The notes under the pieces were generated by a model. That model did not search any database. It was not told the origin of the DNA and saw only the letters and a program-made list of their open reading frames with translations. From positions 1 through 42,754 of the forward strand of contig JABANN010000286.1 in the NCBI GenBank assembly GCA_013115125.1: a DNA stretch of 42,754 nucleotides, in the 5' to 3' direction. A program made the position numbers and the translations under genes. The stretch is from Perkinsus olseni. Lineage: Eukaryota. This document shows, piece after piece, positions 471-39,005 of this stretch (the stretch's first letter is position 1; each line of letters begins with the position of its first letter).

Positions 471-3400
471 ATGGCTAACTATTATTCCCTCGATATCGCG
501 CAACCCGACCCAAGGAAGGAGTTCATCGTGGAGGCCTGCATGGCGCTGCTGGGCATCTCTCAGAAGGACAGAGGAATCTTCAGGTCAGAGCGTGCGACTG
601 TCAAGCGTGCAAGATACGGTTAGGTCGAATCCTGAGTCGAACGGCGAGCTGGAGAAGTTCTTGGAGGACCTCAATACGAAGGTGAGAATTCTTGTAGGCG
701 AATCTGCCGGCTGGTGGTGAAAGAAAATCGGAAAAAATCTCTGCCGAAGCGGCTCGTTTTGAGATGAACTTCTGTCGAGTCTTCACGAACGTTCGATGAT
801 ATTTTCCTTGTTCGAATCGTGGCCTAACTGTCGAAGACGACATAAAGACATATTACGGAGAAGGGGTACGCAAGTACAAAAGACTGCTGTACCCGTGCAT
901 TCTCTGGTTCACCACCAGGATCAGCCATAAGAGAGACGACATTAGCAGTGGTTCCTGGTAACAATAGCATGCTCGTCGTTTTGGTGTCTCGCAACTGACC
1001 AAAAACTGCGAGGCTCAGGCCATCTCGCAGATTCTCTTCGCGTATGAGCAAGCTCACGAGACGGGGATCTCTGGGGAGTTCCGTAATGTTTGTCTTTCGA
1101 CAAGATACGAGGATATCCCCTCAAGGCTTGGAGGTACCACTGGACCTACGGATAAGTTAATCGATCGATTCATTCAGTCGCGGTTGTCTTTATCAAAATC
1201 GGCGTTGGTGAGCTTGCGGCAGAGACGATGAGCGGTAGAGTCGTCACTACCACTGTGGACGTTACCCACCCGATGAGGGGACTGCGGGGTGTCTTGAGAG
1301 AGGCTTACTCGAAGGTCGGTTGGTGGGAACCTTTTAAAGATTCTAATTTGGAATCTTGTACTCGAGAGGGGACCTACTCGCGATCGACTGTGGTCGAGTT
1401 TGGATACTACCGTGACGATATTCTAGAGAATATAAAAGTGAAATATCTTTTGAGCTTGAGCTCACCCTGGGTGAAAAAACATCAACATTATTACGAAGAC
1501 AAGTCAATTTTTTTACGTTCGGAAAATTCAGTAACGTCGAATTTTTGGCGCCAAAGCGTCCCTGTTTGCTCATTTCAGTAGATATTTATCGACGCGTGAA
1601 ATTATTTCGTGTTTTCTTTTTAGTTACTCGGCGACTCGGAAGTTGGCAGGTCGATGTGAGAATCTTCCGGCTGCGGGGGTGAGGTCCATTTTGGTGCTTT
1701 CAGCGAGGAGTTGGTATCTGGGCTTGAAGCTTGTATTAGTCGAGGCTCATTGAGTGAGAACTTCGACGAGGATAATATTGACAATGTAAATGGCGTTGAG
1801 GAAACACAAGAGTGCAAGTGGCGCTTCTTTGGGTAGATAGTAATTCCTTACGATGAGCTCGCTTCCTGGACGCAGCACAAGGAAGCTGGGAAGGAGAGCG
1901 GAGAACGGGTAGCCGGGGGCGTATCCAAGGTCGATCCTTGCTTTACGCGAGTCAATGGATATGCTCGGCCTTGCATGATACAGAATAGTCGTGCTCCGCT
2001 GGGATCGAGAAATGCGGAGGGATACATTTCGGCCGGCATTTTTCCAGGATTCTCAGAACCTGGAAAGTACCCCCGCTGATGCGACCGTGGACGATCGGTG
2101 CTTCTTTGTGTTGAATTCTGAGTGGAAGTTGGCTAAGCAGAGAGTATTCTATTAGACCGTCCGCCGGAGGGCCTCCGGTGATTCCGACCAGAGCAGGAAA
2201 TCCGGGCCTTGGCAGTAAATAGACTTCCCGCGATGGAGTTGAACTCTTAGTGTTGGCGAAAAATTTGTCGGAAAACGTTCCATCGCTTCCTCGTGTGTGC
2301 TTTCATCTCGTATCAAGTGGGTATGTTGGCTTCCAGGATTTGGTGGATTTCAGGTATCAAGAATTGCTAAGGAGCTTTCAGAGTGTCGCTTGGCGGCCCC
2401 GATGCTCTTCGATAATTCGTCCCCACAGGAGAGAGGTATCAGGCTGGGAGAGTATCTTGAACTCGCGCGAGGTATTTGGGAAATTCTTGTGGGTCTCTTC
2501 GTGATGGCATCATTTCATATGACCGGGTAATTTCAGAGTTATCTGTTTTCGGAATGTTCTACAGCTATGCCGCAAATAAAGCGATATAATCGTTCATCTG
2601 CGGGTGTATTTGTCCGGGTTTGTGACGTTTTAACCCGGGTAAATCTATCACATATCCCAGTAAATAATATTGCGATACTATACTTTACTGGAATAATTGA
2701 GTTCTCATCGTCCGGCGATGAGTGGAAAAGATATCCGAAAGGCACCCAACCAGGCACGGCATATCCAAGGTCGATCATAGCTCATCACGGATTTTCACCG
2801 CATTTTGGCTACCTCGTTTCATCATGTCAGGACAATCGTCTTTAGCGACTCTTCACGCCGCGATCGACGGAGTGCTGCCGCTGTTGGAGAATCTTAGTTT
2901 GGATGACAAGATCAACCCGGCTTATCCAGTGAAGAGGATGAAACGGTAAGATACTCGGTAAAACTAGATTGACCTTTCTGTTGCTCAGGCTGTTGGTGGT
3001 CATATCTTATAAGATATGTGCTGAGGTATCCTGGCATTTGGCAGAGGTGAAAGATATTTTCCAGCTGAAAGATAAGGGAGCATCCATGGTTGTTAGGGAG
3101 TCTCTAAAAGTGAACTACCAGAAACGTATTTGGTCGAACCATTTGTTGAAGTCAGGTTCTGGAGAGGTGGGTACAGTGTGTTCAAGATGGGCAGTTGCTG
3201 CCGGAGTCTCCTGTGGAGTCGACCAAGGGGGTAGGATGCTGGTGGTGGTTGTTGTGTTATTGTTCGGCTGTGTGGTCTAGTGGTATGATTCTCGCTTAGG
3301 GTGCGAGAGGTTCCGAGTTCAATAGTCGGCACAGCCCTTATCAGATCCTCGCCTCTCCCCTGCGTCTGGCGGACAGGATACGCTGCGTTAACTCCCTACA

Positions 3401-6400
3401 ACTTCAACAAAAGCAGCTCCGCTCAATAGCAGCCGACGCGACGTCCCCCATCACGCCCGCTGAGGTTCAGTCCCTCATCGAAGACGTTCCCCAGGCGGAC
3501 ACTCACAGCCTTTTCGGCGTCAGTGATTATTCTGAAATGGTCTGGAAGGAATTTTTCGGAAGATACGCCAGAAAGGCAGAGCCAATGGTGCTGAGGTTGA
3601 AGCCGCTCATCGACCGGCAGCTCGCGGCCCCCTCGGGTGATGCTGCGTCGACTGTTGCGAGTGTAACTGGGCAGTTCGGGGCGATGCTGGACTTCCCGAT
3701 TTTGCGGGAGAATCTTAAGAGTGAGAGACAGACCATCCTGATGATGTTGAAGCGCGAGTTGGACGAGGTAGAAGATTCTCTGGGGAGCTCAAGGTCGTTG
3801 GGGTATCTTGAGGATCTGCATCAGCTTGCGATGATGAGAGGGAAAGTGGACTTGATGGCTGCCGGCCTAGCACCGAGTTCAGCAGGATTCCTCCGCGACT
3901 TGCCGGGAGCGTCAGAGGCTCTATCCAATAGTCGTGGGATGTCCATGCTCATCAAAGGTCGGAAAGATACGCTCTTTAAACAATGGTGTGCTGAGATGTC
4001 GAGCAACTCGTCCGTGTGGCTGGACACTTCCGCCTCGGTGATCAAGACCAGCTCGGACGGCGGAGGAGATCTTGAAGTCACCTTTGATAGTCGACTGCTC
4101 CTCGCCACTAAGGAAGCTCGAGCCTTTACGAATGCTGGGTATCAGATCCCGAAGGATCTTTCTGCTAAGGTTGAAGCTGGCGAAAGATACTACAAGTATG
4201 CGGTATCTTTGCGAGAGGTGTGCATCTTTTATAATCAACTTTCTCTCGACCTTCTGCCCTTCCAAAAACCGATGCTTTTGACGGAGGCGTTGGCCTTCGA
4301 GGAGCTGCTGACGAAATCGAAGATGTCCAGCTGGAAGGGAGTTGAGCAGCTCAGGACTTTCACAGAGCGGGCTGAGGAGGGGAGGAGGAGATTGAAGAGC
4401 CTCAATGACAATCTTAGGTTGATGCATGATCAGGTCAGAATGGATAATCGATCAGATGGGCGTAGCGAGATTCTCTCTGCGGTCAGATTTTAAGTGGCAT
4501 TATTAGTCTTTGTGATCTTTCTCTACTACGGCAAGGCGAGCGATGGAGGTCGGCTTTGGCGGAGCTTCAGCGGAAGGTTGATATCGCTGCTGAGGACGCC
4601 GGGGCTTCGGATAAAGTGAGTTAAAATGGGGAAATGATTCCGATTTTGTTAATTTTTTACTAGTAAAAAAATTGGGGAAACCGTCAGGAAGAACCCGAAG
4701 TTGTAAGTGAGCTCAGGAAAGGGAAGAGAGAAACCCGAAGACGCTCTCTTGGAATTTGCCCCTCCTCCTTGGACCTTGGAAATCACATTTTTTGTGACGA
4801 TTTTCCGGATAAATGTCTGGACTTTATGGGAAGGTTTTTTGGGGAGATTCCGGAGATTTTCACCTTTCTTGGGACGATTTTTTGATGATTTTTCGCTCAT
4901 TTTTAGGATTCCTCCACCCAGCTTTGGCGAGCCCACTTGGATCGTCAGTTGAAGGCAGTCGTTGAGATACAGCTGATAAAGGGACTCCAAATGTTCAGTA
5001 AAACGCTCTCGGATGTAAGGCGCGAGAAATTACCGGTTCCGGAGTTTTCCCCCCACTTAAGATTCGCGTTGATATCATGTCAAGCGGGAAGAAGGTTGTG
5101 CTGAAGCCGTCAGTTGAGGAGCTCAGAAAGGTCATAATCGATCGCGTGATCGATTTCGTGAGGTCCTGGTTGTATTCAGAAATATTACCGCGAAGTGTTG
5201 AAGTTCGTCGGCCGAGTTGGAAAAATCAGAGGCTTCGGAGGAGCCCCGGGAATTTTCCGGAAAGTTTGCGAAGGTATTGCGCATCTTCCGGAAATTTTCG
5301 CACAGCGAAGAATATCTTTAGATTCTTCTGGCGTAAGAGAGGCCTTGGTGGCGGCCTATTCTCAAGCGGAGAACTTGTTCGATAGATTGGAGGAGGAGCG
5401 AGCTGGAGTGGAGCATTGGGGGGTAAAAATGCTCTCACCGGGGATCGATCCGGGGACCTTTCGATGGCCTCAGGTTATTGGTAGTGTCGGGGAGCAGCGA
5501 TTGGCGGAACTGGTGGAGATATATGATGGTTCTGGAGAGGCTTTGTGGGAGGCAAATTTGAAGCAGATGAAAAAGAAAAAACGGGAGCTGGAGAGAATAC
5601 CTGATTTCGTTAAAGTCGATTGCTTTACGGTTCACATGGTTATACTGAAAGCTGTCGTGGAGGAGCAAATTGAACGGTAAGGTTCTTGACCTATTTCGTA
5701 TCTTGCCAGCATCAAGCTCAGATTCTCATTGGAGATGGTTATATCTTTGAAACGGCGTATGAATGAACAGATCAAATCACTAACAGTGCAGCTCGAGGTT
5801 TCACTCGGCAAATTGACAGCCGCCCCGGAAAGTATTCGGGAAATTGCGGTATCAGAATCTGAAGTGAAGAAATTATTTGCCGAGCTGCCGAGCATCGGAC
5901 GACAGCTGGAGGCGTTGAGCGAGAGGGCGACTCTGATCGAGACGGCCGGGGGAGGGGCTGTCGTCGGACTGGACAGACTGAGGGAATTATGTGGCGCAGT
6001 GACGGTGAAAGTTGAGAGTTTTGGGACGATTGTGGAGGAAACGAGAGAAAAATTGAAGAGTAAAATGAGCGGGAGAGTGGCGGAGTTGAAGGGGATGGTG
6101 GAAAGATACGCCTCAAGATGGCAGGTCATAGGTTAACCTGTCATTGACGAGTATCTTTTTGTGATATAGGCCTTGAAACCGGTAGTAGAGGAAGGGGATT
6201 CGCCCTTCTCTACAGCGGTTAAGGAGGCGTCTGAGAGAATGGATGAATGGAAAAATGACTTCTCTGGGATTAAAACCTTTGCAGGTGAGACGCCTGTGGG
6301 TTTGGCGCTTTGTATTGGTTTCGCTTTGCAGATGCTCTTCGCAGTGATTGCGCAGAGTTCGGCATGGCTCCGCCGGAGGTATAATTTCGTGGCGCGCGAC

Positions 6401-9400: not shown

Positions 9401-12400
9401 TGCGGTGCGTGGGGGTGCTTTGATGAGTTCAATCGTCTGTTAGAGGAGCAGATGTCGGCAATCTCGCAACAGATTGAAGTCATACAGTCGGCTATCAAAG
9501 GGAAGCTCCCAACTGTGGACTTGCTGGGCATGAGTAAGTTGCTCAAGGGTTTGGAGTGTCGGCTGTGTGGTCCAGTGGTATGATTCGCGCTTCGGGTGCG
9601 CGAGGTCCCGGGTTCGATTCTCGGCTCAGCCCTCTGTTCTTCTGCAACTCTAACTCTTCATACAATATTCGGAATGGTGCGAATGGAAGCTGAACAACCA
9701 GCATTCAACGCATGATTTTCCCGAGGGCAAAAAAGGCTGATGGGGGTCGTGCTCCCTTTCGGGCCATTTAGTGAAACCTGAAGGGCTTCTTGGGAGAATC
9801 CAACCTCCCGGTTCGAACTCTGAACAGTTTGCCCTCGTCAGATGTCAAAGTTAATCACAACGCGGGTATCTTCGTGACGATGAACCCTGCTGGTAAAGGG
9901 TATGGGGGGAGGCAGAAGTTGCCGGACAACCTCCGACAGCTCTTCCGACCAGTTGCGATGTCCGTGCCTGATAACGAGCTCATTGCTGAGGTGAGTTGGG
10001 TGCGGGGAAAGTAGTTTCGATTTTCGTAATTTCTTTGATGCGGACGATTTTTTCATTTGCAGGTTATTCTCTTTTCGGAGGGTTTTCGAAGTGCCAAATT
10101 GTTATCGGGCCGAATCGTCTCCCTGTTTCTGCTGAGTTCGCAGCTCCTGTCGGCCGAGCAGCACTACGATTGGGGACTTCGAGCGCTAAAGAGCGTCCTA
10201 ATGCTGGCAGGACAGCTCCTGCAGCGAGAGGGGGCTGCGTTGGGAAATGAGCAAGAAAGCAAGATTTTGGTCATGGCGGCTAGGTTGAGTATCTTGGCGA
10301 AATTGTCGAAGGAAGATACGACAAGATTCGCGTCACTTTTGGAAGATATCTTTCCGGGGGTTGAGGCAGCCGAGGTTGACCATGGTGCAATTGAAGTCTG
10401 TGTGGAAGATACGCTCAGAGAGAATCAGATGTGTGTTGAGGAAATGCAAGTGAGCAAGATCTCGCAGCTGCATGAGGCGTGTAAGCAACGGATTGGTGTG
10501 AGCATAGTCGGTCCGAGTGGTTCCGGGAAAACTGTGATCTGGCGGAGTCTGGCTGGAGGGTTGATGAGGTTGGGGAAGAGTACGAGCGTGCACACGATCA
10601 ACCCGAAGAGCATGTCAAAGCAGCACCTTTTGGGGAGGTTGAACGCGGACACGAGAGAGTGGACAGATGGGGTTCTGACGGCCGCTTCGAGGAAGGTGAG
10701 GGTGCCGGATAATTTCGTGGCGCGTGACGATTGCGATGTAGGTCAGCAAGGAGCCGCTCGAGACGGTTTGTTGGATTGTTTGTGATGGTGATGTCGATCC
10801 TGAGTGGATCGAATCGCTGAACTCAGTTCTGGGTGGGAAAAAAGTGAGGAAAATTTCCGAAAATTTCCCATTTTTTCAGATGATAATCGTCTTTTGACGC
10901 TCCCGAACGGCGAGAGAATACGTTTTCTTGACAATGTTAATTTTATTTTCGAAACGGATACCCTTGCCTATGCTTCCCCGGCGACAGTGTCACGACTTGG
11001 TGAGTCGGGGCTGCGGTTGACTGAGGAGAAGTGGCCATAAGACTGTAATTAGTGACCTGCCTCGTCCTGCGCTACGGTGAGGAGGAAGTTCCAGTAGAAC
11101 AAACTCGTTAGTTGTTAACGTACGTGAAACTGTGCTAACGTCAGAACGCAAACAATCGTTAGCTACGGGAAAATTTTGGCGGTGTGAAGCGCCGAAATTT
11201 CTACTAGAACGAAGAAATGCAGGAAAACGTTGAGAATTTTGCCGAAAATTTTACTCTCGTCGCAAAACTTTTACCTCCGACGTACCTTAAACATGAATCG
11301 AAACCTGGCTTTGACAAAATGATGCTTCCCGATCCCTCGTATTGGTCGGGTTGGATGGTATACGGTTCATGGTGTGAGGATTGAACCGAGGACCTTCGGG
11401 TATTCAAATGTAAAGCATTTGCGCGCTCGTCCAAATGATCAGGAATGGTGTATTTGCCTGAGGGAGGGGTCCGAGTGGAGGCGGTAGTCGAGAGATGGCT
11501 GAAGCAACGCGGGGAGAAGATCGGGGTATCAGCAACCGCATTCCTGGAGTGGTGCGAGTCCATCTTCTACAGGTAGCATTGAGGAAATGTAAGATTGGAT
11601 GAGATTGCAAGATGTTGTTGTCAGGTGCCTTGAGTGGGTTAAGGAGCATGTATCGCTGGGATCCGACCTCGGAGTAGAGGTGTCGGTGATGGGGTTGGTG
11701 AGGAATGTGCTGAGTCATGTTGAAGAAGCTATCAATAATGGGTTGAGAAAGGTAAACTGTAAGGATCGAGCCCACGACCTCACGAAGTGAGGAGTGAGTG
11801 TGGTTGAGGGCTCCCTCTAAGCGTGATTCTTATCCTTAGGAAACGTTTCTGCTGACCGTTGTCCGTGGGATGGGTGGATGCATCAGCAACTCTAATTTAT
11901 CAGCTCAGCTCTACAGGTGACCTCAGGGCTGCAATTTTCTGACACCTCTAGCTGTCATTAGATTCGCTTTCGAATGCGCCCAGGAGGTCTTGCCCGACGA
12001 AGCCGACCCCCAAAACTGTACTTGGAGCGATGAACTCGGACGACTGATAAGGTGAATAATTGGGAGAACGTTTATACATAGCAAGCGAATAATAGTTTGG
12101 GTGAAAAAATCCGACGCTGCTCTCAGATACCGAGCTGTATCCGATGCAGTCCCTCCGTGGTCGTCTTCGATACCGCTGGTCAAAACTCCGCAAGTGATGA
12201 TGATGTTGGACCTCCTCCAGCCACACTTGCGCAGCGGTGAGCTGCCTGTAATTTCGTGGCGCGCGGTCATGGCTATGGGAGTATCTTAGGTCGCCACTTC
12301 ATCCTTGCTGGACTTGAAGGTTCCGGCAAGAGGCTTCTCGTTAGACATGCCCTTGCGGAAATAGCAAGTGGGGAGTTCTGTGACGGAGTGGTTGAGAAAG

Positions 12401-15400
12401 GACCCTCAGATGAGATCAAGATTCGGAGTGCAGGGCTGCAGTGTAGCGGCCAGACTGCTGCCCGGGACGTCATTGTGAAGTTGAGAAGCTTGTCCTTGAT
12501 AGGAGCTGGTGAGGAGGGGGTTCTCTTCCAGTACTGCAGTTGCGGAAGCTTCTATGCTATTCCCGATGGATAAAAAAGAGATCCCTTTGATGAATAGGGA
12601 GTTGCTGAATCATCGAAACTGCTGATTTCTTCGCCAGCTTCCCAGTTGCGGAGTGTATTCTCTCGTGTGTAGGCGATTGTCCAGCCCGATCGAGAATGGA
12701 TCTGATAAGGGATAGACTATCATTCGATAATTCCCGATCGAGGGTCTTCCAAAAAATATGGCGCCCTGTTTAACTCAACAGCTACCGTGTAGAAAACCGC
12801 CAAAAAATAGTAGCCCTAAAAATGACGCCCGTGGGGATCGAACCTGGTAACCTCGTCTTTCGAGGAATTTCCCCCCTTTTCGTGAGCTCCGCCTTTTCGT
12901 AATAAAGGCCTAGTAGTAGCGTGGATGATTAGTCCGGTGGTAACAGATCGTTTCTTGTGTCACGTTTGAGGAGTCTCAGGTCCTAGGGGGCGGACGTACA
13001 GGCCGAGAGAAGGCCAGCGTGTGGTATTGCAGATTGAAGATGTCAACCTACCCAAGCCGGATCGCTATGACACAACTCAATTGGTGGCGTCGTTACAGGA
13101 GATGGTCTCCTATGCGGTAGGCCCCAGGTTCGAACCGCGGGTGGGGTATTTTTCTGTCCAGGGCTTCCACGATGAGGATCTGGAATGGGTAGCGCTGGAG
13201 AGCATCCAATTCATCTCAACCATGGCACCTTCGAGTGCCCTCGGCCGACACACGATCTCGAAAAGGTCAGGGTGACAGCGGAGCGAAGTTTTTTTCCGAA
13301 TTTTTGTGATTGCCCCTTCATTTGCCAACCGATCTCTTCCAGGGACGGTGGAATCTTAGGTTGAAGCTTGCTAGATTCAGATGTACACCGTTCGTCTGTC
13401 ATTTTTCCACTCCTTAGGTTCACCTCGGCGATGTGCCAAGCGTGGGTCGCTAGCCCCAGTCGGGAGGACCTCAGCAGCATCTACTCTCAGCTGATACTCT
13501 CCGTGACGGAGCGTGACGAGATGGTATCTTTGACGGAGGCAATGGTGGGGGTGTACGAACAAGTTGTTCAGAATTTCGGACCGGAGATGTAATAGCGGGT
13601 GCTGGGTTTTTGGGGAGCTTCTTTCGACGTATCATAGGTTGACTCTGGGTAGCCGCAGAATTTGTAGTATCTTTTGGTTTGTTTTAGTCGAGCTTCGACC
13701 TTAGATACGCTCATTATGTGTTCAACCCGCGAGACATCAGCGACTGGATGCAGCAATTGTTGAAATACGACTTGAAGGGGAGGGACGCAACCACCATGCT
13801 AGGAGCTTGGGGGTGAGGTCACCCTGGTCAATGACGAAATAAAAGATACCTTTCCTCTCAGATACGAAGGTAGGCGTATCTTTAGGGATCGTCTCGTTGG
13901 TCCGAAGCATCGAACAAAATTGGATACGATTTTGCGAGAAGTAGCGGAGGACAGGCTGGGCGGGTTCCTGGCGAACGCGGGGGGCGATCATCTCCTGGAC
14001 AGCAAAGATGGGCCGAAGTGGAGCACGTTAGTTGATAAGACGGTCGAAGGAGAAGTCCAAGGTGAGGGGGTTTGCCGGAGTCTGATCTTACGAATTTGTC
14101 CTCTTCCGTTGTAGGGTAGTCTGAGTATACTGTTGAGGGGAAGTTATGGTACTTACGGATTTTCTATCGCGGGCATTGAGCTCGCCGAAATGGAACTTTG
14201 AGTCGAGTGGTGGTAGCCTGCGTGATGCTTTTACGCGTGGAAATGTCGAACTCTAGAAAAGTGTCGTTAGATAGAATTTGGCCTGAAAATCAGGCTGATG
14301 GTGGGCCCTCGCCGTGAGTCATTTATGAGCTTCCCGAGTGGAAGATCTCGTCGGTTGTTCTTTCATTTATTTTTGATGTTCCTTGCGAAAATGGAGAAGA
14401 TTTTGCTTTTGATTGTGATGTTTCTTGGTATCTTCCTAGGTACCCTCAGAGAAGTATCCAAGGTCGACTATAAGAAGATACTCTCCACTGGCTTGGCGAC
14501 CTACGAGAGAGACGTCAGGCCGTTGGGAATCACCCTTGTGGACGAGGTGAATTTCGTGGCGCGTGACGGTTGAGCACTGGGATTGGTAGGTCGTGGATAA
14601 TCTAGCGTGCCTCGATCGAGTCCTCGGCAGTCGAGGGGGCGGGTCGGGGTGTGCATGCGTGCTGATGGTGGGCCGATCGGGTTGTGGTCGGAGAAGTAGC
14701 ATATCTTTGGTGGCGCATCTGATGGGATATGAAATCGTCGCGCCAACGGCGATCGGCGCCAACTCGAAAGCGTGTATGAAGGAGTTGAAGTTTGCGATTG
14801 TTAAGGCTAGCGGAGCGGAGCGAAAAAAGATTGTAGTTTTTGTGGAGGACCATCAGCTGAGCGGCCCAGCAGAAGAATTTTTTGGAGTGCTGAACGCATT
14901 GATTGCGAGGGGGGAGTCGGGCGAGTTGATTCAAGGAGAGGAAAGAGAGATGTTATACGCGCAAGTTAAGGAAGATTATCAACAGGAAATGCTACCGGGA
15001 GAGAGTATCCAGGAGTATCTTCTGCGACGCACGCGAGAGAATCTTATGTTCGTCCTGTCCTTGGACCCAACTCATCCTCATTTTCATGATATCACTTCGA
15101 TGAACCCTGGACTGTTCACGAGATCAACTGTCCTCTGGAACTGGGCAGGGTGGGCCAGAAAGTAAGTTGGGAGGAGATCTCGGTGGGCTGTCTATCTGGA
15201 ATACTCCCTCTTCTTTCGGTGTTGGGAGTATTTGTCCGTGGAACTTTCTAAGGTCCCGTCGGATATCTTTGAGTCAGCGCGTTCTTGGTTTCTATCGGAA
15301 ATCATTTTTTCTTATGCCTTGGCCGTGTCTCAGGCCATCGTTGGAAATTTTAGATTTTTCGCTGCCGAAATAAATTCTGTCGCGTTCTCGGGACAAAAAG

Positions 15401-18400
15401 AAAATGCCTAATTTTTCATAAATTTTTTAAACCCGAAATTACTGTTTGCCAGGTCGTCGTTGATCGTCACTTCGAAAGCTTTGAAGAGCATCGTTGGTGG
15501 GGGGGGGGAGGCGGAGAGGCTTCCGTATCACAAGGAGCTGTGTGAGGCTACGGTGGACATACACGAGAGCACAGGATGCAGTCAAAGATATCTTTGGGCT
15601 TTACTGAAGCTATGGGCGGCCGGATTCAGAGAACACTATGAGAGAATAGGGAGGGAGCAGGAGAGGTTGAAGAAGGGACTTGACAAGTTAAAAGATATGC
15701 ACGAGACAGTTGATGAGCTGACAAGGGAGGCGAGGGCGAAGGAGGAGGAATTGTCGGTGAAGGAGAGAATGGCGAGTGACTCGCTGAAAGGAATCGAAAA
15801 CGGGCTTGAGGAATCTGCCAAGTACAAGGCTGAAGTTGAAATACTCGACGAAAAAACTCGAAAAGACGAGGAGAATTCCCAGAGGGAACACGCTAGAATC
15901 GAAAGTGAGTTGGCGGAGATTCAACCAGTTTTGGAGAAGGCTCGGAAGGCTGTGGGGTCGATTCGGCAGGACAATCTGAACGAAATCCGCGCCCTAAAAA
16001 TGCCGCCTGAAGCGATTCATGATGTGCTTTACGGGGTGCTGTTGTTGATGGGAGGGTCGGACAGCAGTTGGAACGCTATGAAGAAATTTCTTTCGGGTGC
16101 GGGAGTCATCCAGAGGGTATTGAATTTTGATGCGCGGAAAATATCTTTGAGGTCGAGGGAGGAGGTGGAGAGGTTGCTGGAGGAACGGGGGAGATCTTTT
16201 GAGGACTCCGTGATTCGCCGAGCGAGCTTGGCGGCGGCGCCTCTGGCCCTGTGGGTGAAGGCAAACGTCAGGTGAGAGAAGGGAGAGGGGAGGAGTTGTT
16301 GTTTACTCGCCAAAGGACCGATTTCTTGCTTCAAAATCTGTAATTATTTCTGTTTTATCATTGCGGATTATTGCCCGAAAATCGTCGAGTCATTTCCGTC
16401 AGTTTTTGAGACTATATCACAAAAATCGGTCACCCGTAGGTAAAGAAATTTTCGGAAAAAATACGCAATTTTGTCTTTTTTAGAGTTTCTGTTTTTCTCG
16501 ATTAGTTGCAACTTGCAAATTTTCCATATTTTTCAGAAAAGTTCATAGCAATTTTCATTATGATTTGACAGTGCTCAGTATTGGTCATCCTGAAGAGATC
16601 CATGTTCTGGATAGATTATTGAAACGGCTGTCAGCGTATCTTTGAGAAATCTTTGTGGTGATGAAAGGGTGTAGGTATTCCCGAGTAGTGGAAAGAGTGG
16701 CCCCAATGGAGTTGAAGCTGCGGCAGACGGAAGAGGATCTGCACGCCGCCCGGATGAGGTTACGGCAGTGTGAAGTGGAGATGGAGAAAATCACAGAAAG
16801 GGTTAAAGAGATGCAGAAGGAATTCGCGAAAAGAACAGGTGGCCGAGAAAAGTTGGTTCGTTTTCGCTGAATTTTTGATGGTTTTAAGGGGAGGCGGAGG
16901 CCCTTCGGAATGGAGTGGAGGAAGCCCGTGGCACTTTGAGGAGGGCTGTGGGGCTGCTGGACGGGCTGGGCGAGGAGAAGGAGAGGTGGCGGGAAGAAAC
17001 TGATAGAATAACCATCAAAATGGGTGAGAGGGGTCGTGGCAGCGGTCTCCTTTCTCGCGGAGATGAACACTTCAACCATTTTGTTTTCCGCCCCGGTCGA
17101 ACTGCGCTCGAATAAGTATTAAATATTATCTACATTACAGATTTTACGGTTGATTCAAGATGGAATTTTAGGCAGTTGAAAATTTATGATATCTTGAGGT
17201 TGCTCCGCGTAAGATACGGAATAAAAGATTCCTTTTAGAGCGTCTCCCGGTTGAGAGCATGGTGGCCGCGGCTTTCATGGTGTATGTTGGCGCACTGGGA
17301 GAAGATTCTCGAGCGGAGTATCTTTCCGACTGGGAATCCAAGCTCGAAGCGAGGTCTATACAAAACGAAAGATTCTCCTTCCTAGACTTCACTGCAACCG
17401 AATCGGAGTTGCTGAAACTGAGGAGCCAAGGGCTTGGCGGTGATGAGCTGTCAGCAGAGAATGCTATGATAATATTGAGGAGTTATAAGGTAGAGCAAGA
17501 TTGCAAAATTTCAGTCTGCAATGTCCTCATAACAGGTGGCCGTCCCTCTCATCACCGACCCTTCGCAAAATGCCGAGGTTTGGTTGAACCGGAATCTGAA
17601 GGAGAAAGGAGTGCAACTGACGGGAAGTCTCGACCAGAGCGATCTTGCATTCTTGCACACTCTTGAACTTTCTCTACGTTTTGGCAAGACCGTCTTCCTG
17701 GCCTTGACTGAGGCGAAGGTCGATCCAGTTCTGTTCCCTCTACTGCGCGGTGATTGCCATTACACTGGTTCGAGGAGGGTGATTCACTTAGCGGAGCGAA
17801 GCGTGGATTTTTCTGACGATTTTTGTATCTTTTTGACGTGTCGGGACCCTGGTATCTTGGGGTCGATTCCGCCCGACGTGAGAAGCCTCTTGATTGGGGT
17901 CAACTTCACCGTCACGCGGCAAGGCCTGATTCGACAGCTACTGGGTGAGTGTTGGCGAGTTGGGAGTTACAGATGGAGTGGTACGTATCTTAAGGTATCG
18001 TTCTGAGCCATGATCGACCTGAGCTCGAAGAGAGAAGGAAAGAGCTGCTCGCTAATGAGGAGACCCTCAAGGTTGGTCGGCCCTTCCAGATACTTTTTCG
18101 GTATTGTCCTCGCTTCGACCTAAGACTCTTGAGGTTTTTGGATTGGTAGTGTTTTTAGAGTCGATTGATGGACCTCGAGGATGAGCTGCTGGAGCAGTTG
18201 GCCGCTGTCGAGGGAGATATCTTGGGGAATCAGAGGTTGATGGAGAGTCTCAACAGAACGAAAGATAGCGCGATTAGTATCGCTGAGAGTTTGCAAGAGA
18301 GTGCAAGATTGCAAGATGCACTTGATCAGCAGAGGGCTGTGAGTGTCTTCTGCCGGGGTCGAACCGGGGACCTTTGGATGGATCTTCGCAGATGTTCCGG

Positions 18401-21400
18401 TCGATTGCGGTTGAAGGCTCGGAGCTGTTCATGCTCATGTCGGATATGAACAAAGTTGGGTGAGAGAACTGCGTCAACCTTCTCTGTATCTTCCCCGCTT
18501 CAAGCTTGGATACTCGGTCAGGTCCATGTACCGATTTTCGCTGAGGGAGTTCATCGGAATTTTCATAGCTTCTCTCGGCGGTGAGCCTTTGGTGGCCCGC
18601 GAGTTGATAGACAGCTAGAGGTGTCAGAAAAACAATCGGGCGGACCGGACGAAGATCTTGACATCCGTTTGAACGACATTTCGACTCGTCTGAAGGGGAA
18701 CGTTCTCGAGTATGTCAGCAGGGCACTGTTCAAGCGCGATAGGTGATGAAAATGTCGCGCGCCACGAAATTACGTGGTGGCTTCAGGCTCACCTTCGCGG
18801 TTATGATGGCAAGAAACGCGGTGGCTGAATCGATTAAAGAGAATGAGTGGCAGTTGTTCATGGGGAATTTCGTGGCGCGTGACGGAATTAGTCCGCTGAA
18901 GGAAGGGCATCTGTCGTGGTGTCCGGTGGATAGGAGAGCTCAGCTGGCCAAATTAGTTTTGGCTTTGTCGGAGTTGAACGCGAAAGCGAAGATGGAAAGT
19001 CCGAATTTGTGGCGAGGATGGATTGAGGTGAGTATCTTAGGTCGAAGCAGAGGAGATATAAAACAGGTCGAAGTGAGCTTTTGCAGGAGGACGCCTGTGA
19101 AGAGAAGTTCCCCCAGGAGATTGCATTGAAATTAACGTCATTCCAGAGGATCCTCATCGTCCAAGCTTTGCGGCCGGACAGGCTCGAATCTGCCTTGGCC
19201 AAGTTCACCACCGAGGTGATATCTCTCGACTACGATTGTTTAGTGGTTAGTCTGGCACTCTTCTATGTCGGTGTCCCCGGTTCGAATCCTGGTGTCGATC
19301 TTTTAGGTTTTGACCGTGCCTTCAATCTCCCCCTCCACTTCATCCCTCCATTCACTCTGCCAAGCTGCTGAGGGCGTCCGGCCGATACTCTTTATCGTCA
19401 CTCCCGGGGCGGACCCCACTCGGGAGCTCACGGAGCTGGCAGCCTCCACTGGGTGGGCTGGCAATTTTGTGGCGCGCGAGGATGTTATTTGTTAGGCAAA
19501 AGTTGGTATCAATGGCGATTGGAGGCGGCAATGAGCAGGAGGCTTTAGAAATGCTCCGGAGTGAGTTTTTGAGATGTCTGCGCCGGGGATCGAACCCTGG
19601 TGTTCCGACTTCTCAGAGGGAGTGATTGAAGGGCATTGGGTCCTCATCATGAATCTTCACTTGGCCTTGGCGTGGGCCGGCAAGATCGAAGTCGAACTTC
19701 GAAACGGCAAACCCCACCGGGACTTCAGGTCCTGCTACCTGCTCAGATCGAGCGTATCTTATGTTGATGCGTGCAGATGCTGGTTGACCACCGAGCCTAG
19801 AGAGAACTTCCCGACGATACTGTTGGAATCTTCCTTGAAGGTCGCCTTCGAGTTCCCACCCGGCGTCCGGAACAACGTGAAGAGGATATGCGAGAGTTGG
19901 GACAGTCGATGGTTCGAAGCCGGCGACGTCAGCAGGTCCCAGGTAAAGGACGGGCTGTTCGATTCGAGTATCCATGGCATTCTGTCTTTGCCTGCTTTCA
20001 ACCTAAGATACGTTTCAGGTTCTGTTCCTCTGCGCGTGCTTCCATACTGCTGTTCAAGAGAGGACTTCCTTCATCCCGCAGGTCGAGATGTCGTCCCGCT
20101 CGAGGGGCTGCAGTGCCAATTGAGCTGTCCTCAGGGATGGACGAAGGATTATGAGTTTTCTACCGCTGACTTGAAGAGCGCCTGCGAGACAGCGTTGCAG
20201 GCGTTGAAGGATGACGGAAGCGGTGAGATGTCGCTGCTGGGAATCGAACCCAGGACCTTTCGACTACCCACTTCAGTGGAGTGGCCGACCCTGAGAGGCA
20301 TACTCGAGAACGCGGTTTATGGCTGTCGAGTTGACAACACCTTCGACCTGAGGCTGGTCCGTCAGTATGTAAAAGATATCTTCGCGCAACAGGTGAGGTC
20401 GCGTCCGAAGAGGCCACTGCAGATTCCAAATCGATCAGGCGATCGATAACGGCGGAGACCTCCTGCCCTTCCGTCTTCCTGCTACTACTAGTCTTGGTAA
20501 TTATTAATAGCAAAAATGACATCCGTGGGATTCGAACCTGTGCAGGCACGTTCAAGTCACACTTAGACCACAGCGAGCGTTCGGGAAATGATCAAACTCA
20601 TCTGAAAATGGCACCGAATACCGATAGAGCCGTGCAACTAACGAATAGTGAAAGGGTGAGGGCGCCCGGGGTATGAGCCTCGCCCAAGCTACTGCCCCTC
20701 TGCAGGTTCTGGCCCAGATCCGGATGCTGAGGATAAGGCACGTGCAACCGAGTGGCCAGCAGTCGGCCGAGGGGACGATTGACATGATATCGTTGCGTGG
20801 GGTGAGATGTCGGGGGGCGTTTGGGCTAGAAACTGTTAGCATCGTATTTGTAGCATAAATTTTGAGTGTTGTCGTCGTGCAGGAGTTGGAGGTCCTCTGG
20901 GCCTTCTGGGAATCTCGAGCTGGGGAACATCAGGCTGCTGCGTCGGAGCCACTGCGACCGGCAGAATCGACAGACTCGCCGACAGCTGCTTTTGTGAAGG
21001 CGGACACGCTTCTTGCGACGGAGATATTCACTACGGTCTGTCTGTCCACTCACTCGACCTGATTTGTATCTTCCTACCTTGAGCTGAAGATACTCAGGTT
21101 GATCAGCATCTTCGAACTTTGCAGCGATTCTGCACAAGCCCCGTTTCAGCTCATCCACCTCTAACCTCAGAGCTCAACAGTAAGCACTGCAATTTCGTGG
21201 CGCAGTGACAAATTCCTTGCAGGTATAGCAGACAGCCTGGTCCGACATTCAGTACCTTCGACGTGGTCTTCAGGATGGCTGTTGGCACCGGAAGAGCCTC
21301 TCCGGTTTTTGAATGTGCTCTTGGAGTCAACGCTGACCTTCAGCCGATCTGTTCAGGATATCTCCATTTGCTTCGTGTTGCTTCGAACCCGCTGGATGGC

Positions 21401-22327
21401 CGCCGCTGCCGCTGATAATTTCCCGAGTTCCCGGCCTGTCGACCTCGGCCAACTGCTGCGGCCGGGAGTCTTCCTTAGCGCTCTCAAGCAGCAAACTGCC
21501 AGGGCTTTGAAGGTGTTGGTTCATTAGCGTCTATCAAGGGAAATCGCTTTCGTATCGATGTGGGGAGAATGGCCTGGTTTCGGTTTCGTTGGCCTCGCAC
21601 GCGAACCCAGGTCGAAGATTTTCCAGTGGCAGTCGACTCCTCCGCCTGATGATCTCTGTTTTGAATCTGACAGAGTTCGGGAGGTTGATCCTGTGGAATC
21701 TTTCCTGTGCGCCATGGGAAAGATCTCGAAAGATTCGTGGATCGATGGAGAATCTTTAGGTTCCGTTGGACTCTTCCTTGAAGCTCAGCACTTCATTCGA
21801 CTGTCCGGAGGGAACTGGAATGTCGGCTGTGGTGGAAAATCTTCAGCTGGAGGTAAATTTTGCCGTGTGCAAGCATCAACCTAAGATACCACCGATGGTC
21901 AGGGTTGCCGATTGGACCCTACGACTCACATGCTGGTGGAGAGTAGCCGGCAAGACCCTCCCTTCTCTCCTCTGCCAAAGCTAACTTTGTGTTGGCTGCC
22001 GGTGCACCAACTGGAGGCCGCGGGTTCGAAACCTGGTGAGCGCATATTCAATTATCTTGCAAATTGAAGAAACCCCTTTTCAATCCATTGGAAAGATCAA
22101 AGTGGAAGTGAGCCTAGTATCTATGTTGATGCTTGCAGGATACGCACAAATGTCGGTCCCATTGTACGGCGACCGAGAGAGAAGATACTTCATAGCCGAG
22201 CTGAGGATGATAACAACCAATGTGAGGGAGAGGTAGGATGCCATCAAGAGCATGCGTGCTGATGACAAGTCAACTCAGGATCCTCAACGCATGCGCGGTC
22301 TTTGTTTCCCATGCCAACTCACCCTAA
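471..22327 (+). CDS. DYNC2H1: Cytoplasmic dynein 2 heavy chain (retrograde IFT dynein), multi-exon gene
   Basis: ATG at 471 gives [23 protein letters not shown], like the dynein-2 N-terminal D.RK.FI motif. Linker: [35 protein letters not shown]1: [71 protein letters not shown]2: [18 protein letters not shown]3: [11 protein letters not shown]4: GRSGCGRR, a dynein-2-type P4. Stalk/[21 protein letters not shown]-terminus [10 protein letters not shown]...[15 protein letters not shown] with TAA at 22325-22327. Confidence 0.95.
3266..3337 (+). tRNA. tRNA-Pro(AGG), intronic in the dynein gene; G-G mismatch at the base of the T-loop, possibly non-functional
   Basis: GGCTGTG/CACAGCC acceptor stem, TGGTCTAGTGGTATGATT D-arm typical of eukaryotic tRNA-Pro, anticodon arm CTCGC-TT-AGG-GT-GCGAG, T-arm CCGAG-TTCAATA-GTCGG. 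Confidence 0.85.
5430..5464 (-). pseudogene. tRNA 3'-half relic inside a 51-nt dynein intron (5423-5473)
   Basis: Reverse complement reads TCGAA-AGGTC-CCCGG-ATCGATC-CCCGG-TGAGAGC-A followed by TTTT. Confidence 0.6.
8611..8670 (+). repeat. Degenerate 11-bp tandem repeat (GGCGGAAAATT) in an A/T-tract-rich dynein intron
   Basis: aaattggcggaaaattggcggaaaattggcgcaaaattccggaaatttt read directly. Confidence 0.7.
9561..9632 (+). tRNA. tRNA-Pro(CGG), intronic in the dynein gene
   Basis: 72-nt cloverleaf: acceptor GGCTGTG/CTCAGCC with one T-T mismatch, anticodon arm CGCGC-TT-CGG-GT-GCGCG, T-arm CCGGG-TTCGATT-CTCGG. Confidence 0.88.
12823..12896 (-). pseudogene. Degenerate class II (Leu/Ser-like) tRNA relic in a dynein intron
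   Basis: Reverse complement shows AAGGCG, a long variable-arm hairpin CCTCG-AAAGA-CGAGG, then CCAGGTTCGATCCCCACGGGCGTCA followed by TTTTT. Confidence 0.55.
19226..19298 (+). pseudogene. Full-length degenerate tRNA-like sequence filling dynein intron 19216-19306
   Basis: TCGAC.../...GTCGA complementary ends, A-box-like TGTTTAGTGGTTAG, T-arm CCCGG-TTCGAAT-CCTGG. The anticodon arm is disrupted. Confidence 0.6.
19575..19616 (-). pseudogene. tRNA 3'-half relic in dynein intron 19561-19616
   Basis: Reverse complement CT-GAG-AA-GTCGG-AACAC-CAGGG-TTCGATC-CCCGG-CGCAGAC-A keeps canonical spacing. Confidence 0.6.
20229..20263 (-). pseudogene. tRNA 3'-half relic in a dynein intron
   Basis: Reverse complement TCGAA-AGGTC-CTGGG-TTCGATT-CCCAG-CAGCGAC-A has a perfect T-arm. 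Confidence 0.65.
20517..20545 (-). pseudogene. tRNA 3'-end relic (Leu-like) at the end of a dynein intron
   Basis: Reverse complement CAGGTTCGAATCCCACGGATGTCA then TTTTT, closely similar to the relic at 12823. Confidence 0.55.
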
Positions 22328-23755: not shown

Positions 23756-23868
23756 AATGGGGAGACGGAAGCTGCCAACGGTCGTGTCTCCGGGCCCGGG
23801 CGGGCGGTCGAAATCGGCCCGAGCGAGGTAAGGTCAGGGCTGTATTTCCGAACCAGCATAGCGTCTAC

Positions 23869-37734: not shown

Positions 37735-39005
37735 GCGCGGAGGTAGTGAGATTCCCGACTAGAAAGTCTAGTTGTCATTTTTCTATCGAATATACCATTA
37801 CCGGCTTACGACGAAAATGACGGTTACTTTTCCGAGGCGGTAGGGGATTCTATCGGTGGGCGTTAGGGTAATCCGAACACCCCGGTTCGAATCCCCGTAG
37901 CGGCCTTTTATTACCCGTATTTTTCTTACGTCCGTGAAGTCGTATGTTGTTACTTTGATGATGTTGACACCCACTCTTCCTTGGCGATTTTTTGTCGAAT
38001 GGTCGGGAGTTGTTGTTCTCATGCCCTGCTTCCTTTTCTACCAGCAGGAGTGGGCTCATCAACCCGTCTATTCTTCGTCAAGATCAACAAAACAACAAGC
38101 AGAATTAGCGAGCAACAGTGATGTATCTGTTGTCGTTATCGCTGTTGTTTTTCTTTTTGCCATCAGGGAAGAATTTCAAAGCACTAGCTCGTCTTGAGTT
38201 GAGTCATTATGTAAATACTCGGGAATTTGGTGATGGTCAGTCTGCATCAGCGACGGTACAAGATGCCCTCACCGCTGATGCTGTTCTGCTTGGCAGGATT
38301 GGTAGTATCAGCGCGAACGCATTTCCGTTCTCGAATTGTTGATGCTTGCCTACCTGAGGAGGACTCCCTCGTTCTTCTCAGAGAATCGGGGAGGCACTCA
38401 ATACAGCGGACGAAAAGGAGAAGAAGCAGTAGGCCCGGGGCGAGGGTCTCCTTCGTTCGACCCGTCCTCTTATTGTCAACGTATCGCCATCTGGCACAGA
38501 GTAATGGGGAAGAAAAGAGCTCTTTTGGTGGCAAAAGAGCTTTATGATTCAGAGTATGCGTGTGATCGTAGGATGTAGTTTAAAAAGGAAAATTCGGTGG
38601 GGAAATGCTTCAATCGACCAAGACCACTATCTACTCTCGGGAAAACTTGTTCTGACTGGCCTGAACAATGATCGTAAATCGTGCTGTATGATTATTCCCT
38701 CCGCTTCGCAAGATTCGGCGTGAGCAGGGCTTGATAGCTTCTCATGGTTATTGAATTCGGGCCCTATTTCGACCTAGAAAAAAATTATTTTTTTGCCTGA
38801 TGTGGAGGAAGTTGTCGATGTTGGTCAATCCGCCGAGGGGTCGAAGGAGGCTCGAACCGAGTAGAGGAAGGCCTGCCGGTAATTTGCTCAGTATGATGGT
38901 TTCCTCTTTGAGAGGAGTGAATAACCCAACAGCATCTTCCATCTTTAGAACATCGGAGAGTTTTCGGTTTTTCCTTTTTTGTATCCTCCGTTTTCATTCT
39001 CTCAG

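What the first reader, a model, noticed from the sequence alone, without database searches (positions are those of the whole stretch)
3231..37909. Small spliceosomal introns repeatedly built from tRNA genes or tRNA relics, in both orientations
Seen in sequence, besides the two tRNA-Pro genes: B-box/T-arm relics at 5430-5464 (-), ~11372-11400 (-), 12823-12896 (-), 13118-13153 (+, followed by TTTTT), 19226-19298 (+), 19575-19616 (-), 20229-20263 (-), 20517-20545 (-), 22013-22044 (+) and 30354-30425 (-). Intergenic relics lie at 32698-32715 and ~37836-37909. They differ in acceptor-stem sequence, so they are not copies of one SINE. Several fill almost the whole 50-90 nt intron. The GGTTCRA B-box is the best-preserved part. 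Established: B-boxes bind TFIIIC and can act as chromatin boundaries. Inference: tRNA insertions seed new introns, or intronic B-boxes are retained as TFIIIC sites within Pol II genes.
Basis: partly seen in the sequence, partly recalled or inferred. Interest (0 to 1): 0.75.

Follow-up and report, generated by a model that had tools for sequence, protein, structure and literature searches.

The report
tRNA gene relics inside Perkinsus introns
Many of the tiny introns of a flagellar dynein gene in the oyster/clam parasite Perkinsus really are made largely of decayed tRNA-gene copies, which may point to an overlooked way that introns are filled, and perhaps created.

Summary
The window comes from a Perkinsus species. 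Spliced exons are 95% identical to NCBI P. olseni dynein-2 heavy-chain fragments.

The observation largely holds:
- B-box motifs are enriched: 14 vs 2.09 expected, and 13 vs 3.66 at ≤1 mismatch.
- T stems pair and co-vary.
- Four relics carry TTTT exactly 8 nt after the T stem, as a tRNA gene would.

In my 64-intron model, 11 introns hold a tRNA gene or relic. Seven short introns (45-91 nt) are almost filled by one, and five of those are confirmed against P. olseni proteins.

- 22013-22044 lies in the last coding exon.
- 11372 and 12823 lie in 443- and 462-nt introns.
- The Rfam tRNA model scores none of the listed relics.
- Most relics are 3' halves.

The relics come from several different tRNAs, which fits the known tRNA-gene amplification in P. 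marinus. They are one of at least five short modules that recur in 29 of 64 introns.

I could not test whether the insertions created introns or landed in old ones. I also could not test whether the B boxes bind TFIIIC. No relative's DNA and no RNA reads were available.

The parts
3266..3337 (+). tRNA-Pro(AGG) gene. It lies at the 3' end of a probable dynein intron, 3167-3344 (178 nt). The acceptor is 7 nt past the tRNA end.
   Evidence: ARAGORN. Rfam 44.8 bits. Best-scoring frame-compatible GT..AG pair. The intron is modelled, not confirmed.
9534..9841 (+). 308-nt dynein intron holding an intact sense tRNA-Pro(CGG) at 9561-9632, plus a further B-box-like site at 9810-9820.
   Evidence: (46.1 bits).
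5423..5473 (+). 51-nt in-frame intron. It consists of an antisense tRNA 3' half (V loop, T arm, acceptor strand, T5). The complement of the T run follows the GT directly.
   Evidence: The intron rests on homologue spacing and splice scores only.
11366..11395 (-). Weak tRNA 3'-part relic inside the 443-nt intron 11000-11442.
   Evidence: (E=0.0067).
12823..12852 (-). tRNA 3'-part relic with T5 at +8, inside the 462-nt intron 12509-12970. It is a sister copy of the relic at 20517-20546.
   Evidence: (E=3e-4).
13117..13161 (+). 45-nt intron. It consists of a sense T arm, acceptor strand and T5, then CTGTCCAG.
   Evidence: Both P0246 and P0247 skip it. 13 of 26 homologue chains support it.
18339..18391 (+). 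53-nt intron made of an antisense tRNA 3' half.
19216..19306 (+). 91-nt intron filled by a sense, full-length decayed tRNA gene. The A box has 1 mismatch at the canonical 43-nt spacing. The B box is perfect. T4 lies at +8 and runs straight into the acceptor AG.
   Evidence: There is no Rfam tRNA hit.
19561..19616 (+). 56-nt intron with an antisense tRNA 3' half.
20223..20276 (+). 54-nt in-frame intron with an antisense tRNA 3' half. The B box is perfect and the T stem pairs 5 of 5.
   Evidence: Weak mascRNA-menRNA (tRNA-like) hit of 17.4 bits.
20497..20545 (+). 49-nt intron with an antisense T arm, acceptor strand and T5. The acceptor AG abuts the T stem.
22013..22044 (+). B-box-like motif inside the last coding exon of the dynein gene. 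It is not an intronic relic.
   Evidence: P0244 aligns over 21900-22064 at 91%. The CDS stays open to the stop at 22065-22067.
30352..30430 (+). 79-nt putative intron of an unidentified + strand gene. It is filled by an antisense, near full-length tRNA-like relic.
   Evidence: A box with 2 mismatches at spacing 44; the joined frames are open. No Rfam hit.
32698..32715 (+). Exact 18-nt copy of the 5' end of tRNA-Pro (acceptor strand plus A box).
37876..37905 (+). T arm and 3' end of a decayed tRNA gene (whole relic about 37819-37906), outside the dynein gene. The B box is perfect and T4 lies at +8.
   Evidence: (E=8e-5).
25057..25269 (+). Two tandem partial tRNA pseudogenes with identical T arms.
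   Evidence: Rfam 29.7 and 27.8 bits. ARAGORN at relaxed threshold.

Best explanation
WHAT THEY ARE
The segments are decayed copies of tRNA genes. Some are whole Pol III units. More often only the 3' part survives: V loop, T arm, acceptor strand, then the T-run terminator, with no CCA. They come from several different tRNAs.

WHERE THEY SIT
They lie in genuine spliceosomal introns of the Perkinsus cytoplasmic dynein-2 (IFT) heavy-chain gene, and in at least one neighbouring gene.

HOW THEY AROSE (inferred)
- They are a by-product of the heavy amplification and turnover of tRNA genes in this genus. New copies keep landing in the genome.
- In a gene-dense genome, introns are the tolerated landing sites.
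- The copies then die and are trimmed toward the ~45-55 nt minimal intron length. A tRNA fragment ends up as nearly the whole intron.
- The former terminator T run serves as the pyrimidine tract when the relic is sense. When it is antisense, its complement and the trailer sit at the GT.

FUNCTION
No B-box function is needed. The relics are one of several kinds of short repeated module that make up these introns.

SHOWN VERSUS INFERRED
- Shown: tRNA derivation, intron location, multiple source tRNAs.
- Inferred: how the copies spread, and the trimming history.
For: ORGANISM AND INTRONS
- NCBI-named P. olseni dynein-2 fragments match the window.
- Window exons spliced at 11 modelled introns align to P0243 over 397 of 397 residues, at 95% identity with 0 gaps.
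- P0246 and P0247 confirm 11 more introns.
- The curated model is an open 4020-codon CDS with 64 introns.

tRNA DERIVATION
- Motif enrichment.
- T-stem pairing 8 vs 0.90 expected, and TTTT at exactly +8 in 4 of 13 hits.
- A box at the canonical spacing in the full-length relic at 19216 (1 mismatch; null P≤0.012).
- An HMM built only from four relic introns finds the T arm of the true tRNA-Pro gene in antisense (E=0.016). It also finds relics 37866-37906 (E=8e-5) and 12819-12870 (E=3e-4).
- The discriminator is A in 12 of 14 relic T arms.

SEVERAL SOURCE tRNAs
- T-stem covariation across 16 T arms.

INTRON BIAS
- A B box with ≤1 mismatch occurs in 7 of 64 introns vs 0.29 in shuffled introns. 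It occurs in 3 of 64 exons.

SIZE SERIES
- Intact tRNA-Pro genes sit in 178- and 308-nt introns.
- A decayed full-length gene sits in a 91-nt intron.
- 3' parts sit in 45-56-nt introns.

BACKGROUND
- In passages I read, Kojima & Jurka 2013 (PMC3706591) count more than 500 copies of five tRNA types in P. marinus, including 349 tRNA-Leu-CTT.

OTHER MODULES
- Four further modules recur in these introns. Any of the five modules occurs in 29 of 64 introns.
Against: - The Rfam tRNA covariance model gives no hit at E≤10 to any listed relic, even in 100-nt searches. The cloverleaf is gone, and identity rests on the T arm, flanks and spacing.
- The 3'-half bias is not explained by random trimming. There are 6 3'-part relics in short introns and no 5'-only relic in the dynein introns. 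The A-box pattern gives 4 matches vs 0.89 expected, none of them in dynein introns apart from the intact genes. Detection by B box contributes to this bias.
- In several short introns the relic begins 2-7 nt from the GT. That is easier to explain if the insert brought the splice site with it.
- Four relic introns align over their whole length (15 intron pairs above the 99.9% null quantile vs 1.4 expected). This could mean copying of intron-sized units.
- The intron boundaries come from my own model plus annotated proteins of a sister species (95% identity), which may themselves be predictions. No RNA reads were seen.
- All of this rests on one 43-kb window.
Confidence: 0.6

Rival explanations
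1. Intron gain. tRNA-gene copies or 3' fragments inserted into coding sequence, and the inserts themselves became new spliceosomal introns. Splice signals were recruited from the unit: the T-run plus AG when sense, and the complement of the trailer or T run as GTRAG/GTAAAA when antisense.
For: - The relics occupy nearly everything between the donor hexamer and the last 6-18 nt in seven short introns.
- In 19216-19306 the terminator T4 runs directly into the acceptor AG.
- In 5423-5473 the complement of T5 follows the GT.
- In 20497-20545 the acceptor abuts the T stem, and an A-box-like motif continues in antisense into the next exon. ARAGORN at a relaxed threshold calls 20516-20613.
- The intact tRNA-Pro(AGG) gene sits 7 nt from an acceptor.
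Against: - No absence allele or orthologue without the intron was available.
- No target-site duplication was evident when reading the junctions.
- A ~75-nt insert in an old ~50-nt intron that shrinks back would also leave mostly tRNA sequence.
- Relics also lie in 443- and 462-nt introns.
Confidence: 0.3
2. Intronic B boxes are kept by selection as TFIIIC-binding (ETC-like) sites or chromatin boundaries within Pol II genes.
For: - Four exact matches to GGTTCGANTCC.
- The invariant columns of the T-arm alignment are B-box positions.
- 3' (B-box) parts outnumber 5' (A-box) parts.
Against: - The conservation is circular, because the relics were found by their B box.
- The V loop and anticodon-stem flank are equally conserved in the four aligned introns.
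- Four unrelated modules show the same intron-restricted recurrence.
- No occupancy data and no cross-species data exist here.
Confidence: 0.1
3. One tRNA-derived SINE or introner family spread as intron-sized units, for example by transposition or reverse splicing.
For: - Introns 5423, 18339, 20223 and 19561 align end to end.
- 12823 and 20497 share the same defective T stem, at 25 of 29 identical positions read.
- GAGATGTC recurs near four donors: 6 matches vs 2.19 expected, with 2 of 100 shuffles reaching 6.
Against: - T stems co-vary, and acceptor strands are about 50% alike while the T arm and V loop are about 85-90% alike. That is the pattern among different functional tRNAs.
- The T-run terminator follows the acceptor directly. 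There is no SINE body or tail.
- Published surveys list 0 introner families for 9 Perkinsus assemblies (supplement table; ie=0).
- The shared CTCAC 'trailer' is simply the complement of the GTGAG donor consensus.
Confidence: 0.1

Closest known systems
Amplified tRNA genes of Perkinsus marinus and their Dada transposons (Kojima & Jurka 2013, PMC3706591; passages read)
   Same: Same genus. tRNA genes are unusually numerous: more than 500 copies of five types, including 349 tRNA-Leu-CTT. They are broken by mobile DNA, so tRNA fragments are expected across the genome.
   Different: In the passages I read, the paper does not place tRNA genes or relics in spliceosomal introns. Dada cuts at the A box (TSD TAGCTC), whereas most relics here are 3' parts ending near the anticodon region. 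No Dada element was recognised in the window, and that was not specifically searched for.
Introners, i.e. intron-generating transposons (Gozashti et al. 2022 PMC9860276 and 2025 PMC12130899; passages and supplement tables read)
   Same: Introns at unrelated positions share sequence. Short repeated units make up whole introns. Related parasites (Amoebophrya) carry many introners.
   Different: Copies here are ~50 nt long and only ~60-75% alike, with no TSD or TIR seen. They would not pass the surveys' all-against-all BLAST cut-off of 1e-5 (method passage). Those surveys list 0 introner families for all 9 Perkinsus assemblies. The T-stem covariation points to many source genes rather than one element.
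tRNA-derived SINEs and tRNA pseudogenes lying in introns (general knowledge, recalled)
   Same: Pol III type-2 promoter remnants (A and B boxes) within Pol II genes, in both orientations.
   Different: There is no SINE body or A-rich tail. A terminator T run follows the acceptor end. The host introns are only 45-91 nt, so the relic is essentially the whole intron.
ETC (extra-TFIIIC) B-box sites of yeasts and mammals (recalled)
   Same: Isolated B boxes without a complete tRNA gene.
   Different: Binding is untested here, and the flanks still show tRNA ancestry.

Membership tests
tRNA gene or pseudogene (Pol III type-2 unit) | Cloverleaf recognised by a tRNA covariance model | tested here: not met
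   Rfam RF00005 hits only 3266-3337, 9561-9632, 25066-25122 and 25210-25264. None of the listed relics scores at E≤10.
tRNA gene or pseudogene (Pol III type-2 unit) | T arm: a 5-bp stem around a TTCRANN loop, with stems that co-vary | tested here: met
   8 of 13 B-box hits have ≥4 of 5 pairs vs 0.90 expected. 75% of cells are paired vs 62% in shuffles (0 of 500 reach it), and all slid controls are ≤55%.
tRNA gene or pseudogene (Pol III type-2 unit) | A box about 43-44 nt upstream of the B box | tested here: inconclusive
   Met for 19216 and 25057 (1 mismatch) and for 30354 and 25195 (2 mismatches). Absent in the 3'-half relics.
tRNA gene or pseudogene (Pol III type-2 unit) | T-run terminator directly after the acceptor end, with no encoded CCA | tested here: met
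   TTTT lies exactly 8 nt after the T stem at 12834, 19279, 20528 and 37884. The null probability of any T4 starting within 12 nt is 0.044. T5 is also present at 5423 and 13117.
Introner element | Many highly similar introns at non-homologous sites | tested here: inconclusive
   Within this gene, 15 intron pairs exceed the 99.9% null quantile vs 1.4 expected, but identity is low. Published surveys list 0 families in 9 Perkinsus assemblies.
Introner element | Target-site duplications or terminal repeats; presence/absence between relatives | not testable with these tools
   No TSD was seen on reading the junctions, and no formal test was run. No relative's DNA was found.
tRNA-derived SINE | tRNA-like head followed by a body and a LINE-like or A-rich tail; one consensus | tested here: not met
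   The terminator follows the acceptor end. T stems co-vary among copies.
ETC / TFIIIC-only B-box site | TFIIIC occupancy without Pol III; the B box conserved beyond its flanks | not testable with these tools
   No occupancy data and no orthologous DNA were available.

The most novel reading that the evidence does not exclude
In Perkinsus, copies of small-RNA genes create new spliceosomal introns when they insert into coding DNA. The copies are whole tRNA Pol III units or their 3' ends with the terminator. The Pol III terminator T run becomes the pyrimidine tract and acceptor when the insert is sense. The complement of the trailer becomes the donor when it is antisense. Together with the other short modules, this would be a diffuse, many-source route of intron gain. 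Current introner surveys, which need long and highly similar copies, cannot see it.
Probability: 0.3. Interest if true: 0.8.

Novelty: new variant of a known kind. Interest (0 to 1): 0.58.

Why it matters
How new spliceosomal introns arise is an open question. The documented source is transposons with many near-identical copies. Here a lineage scored as introner-free has minimal introns that consist of recognisable foreign units: tRNA-gene fragments from several genes, plus other recurring modules.

If the insertions created the introns, that would be a new many-source route of intron gain using Pol III signals as splice signals. If they only landed in old introns, it still shows how fast the content of minimal introns turns over, and how tRNA-gene amplification reshapes a parasite's genes.

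Either way, the question becomes directly testable by comparing the several public Perkinsus assemblies.

Tried and rejected
- RNA evidence. The look-up of sequencing runs listed no holder on record as RNA.
- Whole genome. None is held.
- Relatives' DNA. A metagenome scan with two conserved peptides of the exon shared with P0111 found 242 pattern matches, none of them a relative. A scan with a 19-mer of the CG module found 3 contigs with 60-69% G+C and no other module, which I judged to be chance.
- Earlier findings. Two look-ups gave nothing relevant.
- Spliced-leader idea. The TA module looked like the Perkinsus SL 3' end, but the SL 16-mer has 0 matches at ≤3 mismatches. Rejected.
- Idea that the CG module is an Sm-site or snRNA 3' fragment. 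This rests on recall only and was not tested.
- Gene modelling. My first ab initio models missed in-frame introns and invented micro-exons at 12793-12846, 11145-11181, 11223-11349, 14138-14209, 14271-14300, 6814-6873, 4688-4702 and 17141-17148. I dropped these after comparing with homologue chains and P. olseni proteins. The micro-exon 16537-16583 is kept only because no single intron preserves the frame.
- The strict four-extra-pair T-arm scan gave only 4 vs 0.63 expected, and 16 vs 5.16 at ≥3 pairs. On its own this is modest.
- Literature. I found no report of tRNA relics in Perkinsus introns. The library lacks most subscription journals, and the P. olseni/P. chesapeaki genome paper was not seen.
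Full report
WHAT THE WINDOW IS

The + strand from about 3.2 to 22.1 kb encodes a cytoplasmic dynein-2 (IFT) heavy chain. A 280-aa exon finds dynein-2 proteins at about 44% identity.

Exons from the 3' half are 95% identical to NCBI proteins named 'Cytoplasmic dynein 2 heavy chain 1, partial [Perkinsus olseni]'. The window therefore comes from a Perkinsus species very close to P. olseni.

No whole genome is held.

GENE MODEL

I built the exon-intron model in three steps:
- a splice-site and codon dynamic program;
- colinear ungapped HSP chains from 26 full-length homologues;
- correction against the four P. olseni fragments.

The final model is an open 4020-codon CDS from 3345 to the stop at 22065-22067. 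It has 64 introns: 49 of 40-91 nt and 15 of 116-462 nt, with a median of 53. The N-terminal exons upstream are not modelled.

Window exons spliced at 11 introns between 19216 and 20882 align to P0243 over 397 of 397 residues with no gap. P0246 and P0247 confirm 11 more introns between 11552 and 13861.

These proteins are annotations of a sister genome, not RNA evidence.

Yes, for the most part.
- GGTTCRANYC occurs 14 times vs 2.09 expected.
- GGTTCGANTCC with ≤1 mismatch occurs 13 times vs 3.66 expected, with a maximum of 10 in 200 simulations.
- Of those 13, 8 have at least 4 of 5 T-stem pairs, vs 0.90 expected.
- Of those 13, 4 have TTTT beginning exactly 8 nt after the T stem. That is where a Pol III terminator follows the 7-nt acceptor strand and the discriminator. 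The null chance of any T4 within 12 nt is 0.044.
- The full-length relic in intron 19216-19306 also has an A box with one mismatch at the canonical 43-nt spacing (null P≤0.012).
- An HMM built from four relic introns alone retrieves the T arm of the bona fide tRNA-Pro(CGG) gene in antisense (E=0.016). It also retrieves relics that were not used to build it.
- None of the relics encodes CCA.

Against this, the Rfam tRNA covariance model gives none of the listed relics a hit at E≤10, even in 100-nt searches. What survives is the T arm with its flanks and spacing.

WHERE THE RELICS LIE

Eleven of the 64 dynein introns hold a tRNA gene or relic, or twelve counting a weak one at 11752-11839.

Two introns carry apparently intact sense tRNA-Pro genes:
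- 3167-3344 (modelled), and
- 9534-9841.

Two relics lie in long introns:
- 11372 in a 443-nt intron, and
- 12823 in a 462-nt intron.

Seven relics nearly fill short introns:
- 5423-5473,
- 13117-13161,
- 18339-18391,
- 19216-19306,
- 19561-19616,
- 20223-20276,
- 20497-20545.

In these seven, the tRNA-derived segment starts 2-20 nt from the donor when antisense, or ends 6-13 nt from the acceptor when sense.

B boxes with ≤1 mismatch occur in 7 of 64 introns vs 0.29 in shuffled introns. They occur in 3 of 64 exons.

One listed site, 22013-22044, is in fact in the last coding exon. A further relic fills a 79-nt GT..AG interval, 30352-30430, that joins two open frames of an unnamed + strand gene.

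In the dynein gene, about eight relics are antisense and three or four are sense, plus the two intact sense genes.

ONE FAMILY OR MANY SOURCES?

Four antisense relic introns align end to end. Two pairs are clearly copies of each other:
- 12823 and 20497 share the same unpaired T stem;
- 25057 and 25195 are tandem.

Across 16 T arms, however, the stems differ while staying paired. 75% of cells are paired vs 62% in shuffles (0 of 500 reach it). There are 13 double-change cells vs 6.4 (1 of 500). Slid controls are all ≤55%.

The acceptor strands are only about half alike. That is the pattern among different functional tRNAs.

The shared 'trailer' CTCAC is only the complement of the GTGAG donor. 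GAGATGTC near four donors is a modest excess (6 vs 2.19).

Most partial relics are 3' parts, and no 5'-only relic lies in the dynein introns. The search by B box favours this result.

CONTEXT

In passages I read, Kojima & Jurka (PMC3706591) report more than 500 copies of five tRNA types in P. marinus, including 349 tRNA-Leu-CTT. They also report Dada transposons that insert into tRNA genes. Abundant tRNA-gene birth and death in this genus is therefore documented.

The introner surveys list 0 introner families for 9 Perkinsus assemblies (supplement tables). Their method needs BLAST hits at 1e-5 between introns. Copies of 50 nt at 60-75% identity cannot reach that.

My nine literature searches found no report of tRNA relics in Perkinsus introns.

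A WIDER PATTERN

The tRNA relics are not alone. Other short modules also recur in these introns, some in both orientations:
- a CG-rich module (14 vs 1.22 expected);
- a GTATCTTAGGTCGAAG-like module (11 vs 0.31 expected);
- two smaller motifs.

Any of the five modules occurs in 29 of 64 introns. Fifteen intron pairs exceed the 99.9% null quantile for global similarity vs 1.4 expected.

MECHANISM

Best reading (0.6): these are neutral relics of tRNA-gene copies that landed in introns and decayed. Trimming toward the minimal intron length then left the fragment as nearly the whole intron.

The size series supports this. Intact genes sit in 178- and 308-nt introns. A decayed whole gene sits in a 91-nt intron. 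Only 3' parts remain in the 45-56-nt introns.

The main rival (0.3) is that the inserts created the introns, using the terminator T run or its complement as splice signals. It is favoured by how closely the relics abut the splice sites. It could not be tested, because no relative's DNA was reachable.

Retention of B boxes as TFIIIC sites (0.1) is neither needed nor testable here.

VERDICT

- This is a new variant of known kinds: tRNA pseudogenes in introns, and repeat-derived introns.
- It can be tested directly by comparing the public Perkinsus genomes.

Noticed in passing
Introns 6379-6422, 10702-10741, 12237-12289, 14547-14589, 18581-18627, 19453-19495, 21180-21222 (sense); 8483-8687, 18743-18786 (antisense): A second, non-tRNA intron module (TAATTTCGTGGCGCGCGAC-like). 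It has 14 window matches vs 1.22 expected and occurs in 9 of 64 dynein introns. The sense copies align over whole 40-53-nt introns. Its origin is unknown. A resemblance to an Sm site is recall only.
   Followed up: partly
Introns 8948-8995, 13272-13417, 18072-18158, 19028-19086, 19729-19776, 19943-20018, 21853-21902; also 12281, 13693, 29336, 33727: A third module, GTATCTTAGGTYGAWG, in both orientations: 11 matches vs 0.31 expected. It contains CTTAG/CTAAG and often lies 12-18 nt before the acceptor, so it may be tied to the branch site. It is not the spliced leader (0 SL matches).
   Followed up: partly
Introns 5131-5179 and 7119-7209; introns 4616-4906, 5274-5321, 6678-6983, 8483-8687, 10833-10879: Two further recurring motifs. 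One is the near-palindrome ATCGATCGCGTGATCGAT, in 2 introns. The other is TCCGGAAATTTTC-like, in 5 introns but also in 5 exons. Any of the five modules occurs in 29 of 64 introns.
   Followed up: partly
Dynein gene 3345-22067: Intron lengths are bimodal: 49 introns of 40-91 nt (overall median 53) and 15 of 116-462 nt. 16 of the 49 short introns are multiples of three. Several of those have no in-frame stop and are read through by ORF finders, including the 42-nt introns 12368-12409 and 21315-21356.
   Followed up: partly
20546-20613 (- strand reading): In antisense, the exon after relic intron 20497-20545 carries an A-box-like GTGGTCTAAGTG about 36 nt from the B box. ARAGORN at a relaxed threshold calls a 98-nt 'tRNA' across the intron-exon border. 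This may be partial exonisation of a tRNA insert in a poorly conserved linker of the protein, or it may be chance.
   Followed up: no
42139-42507 (-): An ORF with a sub-threshold Pfam hit to the retroviral polymerase SH3-like domain (E=0.0046). It may be a fragment of an LTR retroelement at the window edge.
   Followed up: no
7659-8482: A 268-aa ORF-like database protein (P0111) is 75% identical to this exon. It ends at the same W-G-W followed by a stop made by the GTGA donor. A more distant relative therefore probably shares the intron position at 8483. Its source could not be looked up.
   Followed up: partly
27476-27551 (-), 30114-30124 (-), 38848-38858 (-): Further weak tRNA-like or B-box-like sites outside the dynein gene. 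ARAGORN at 95% threshold calls a 'tRNA-Ile'. Their context is unannotated.
   Followed up: no
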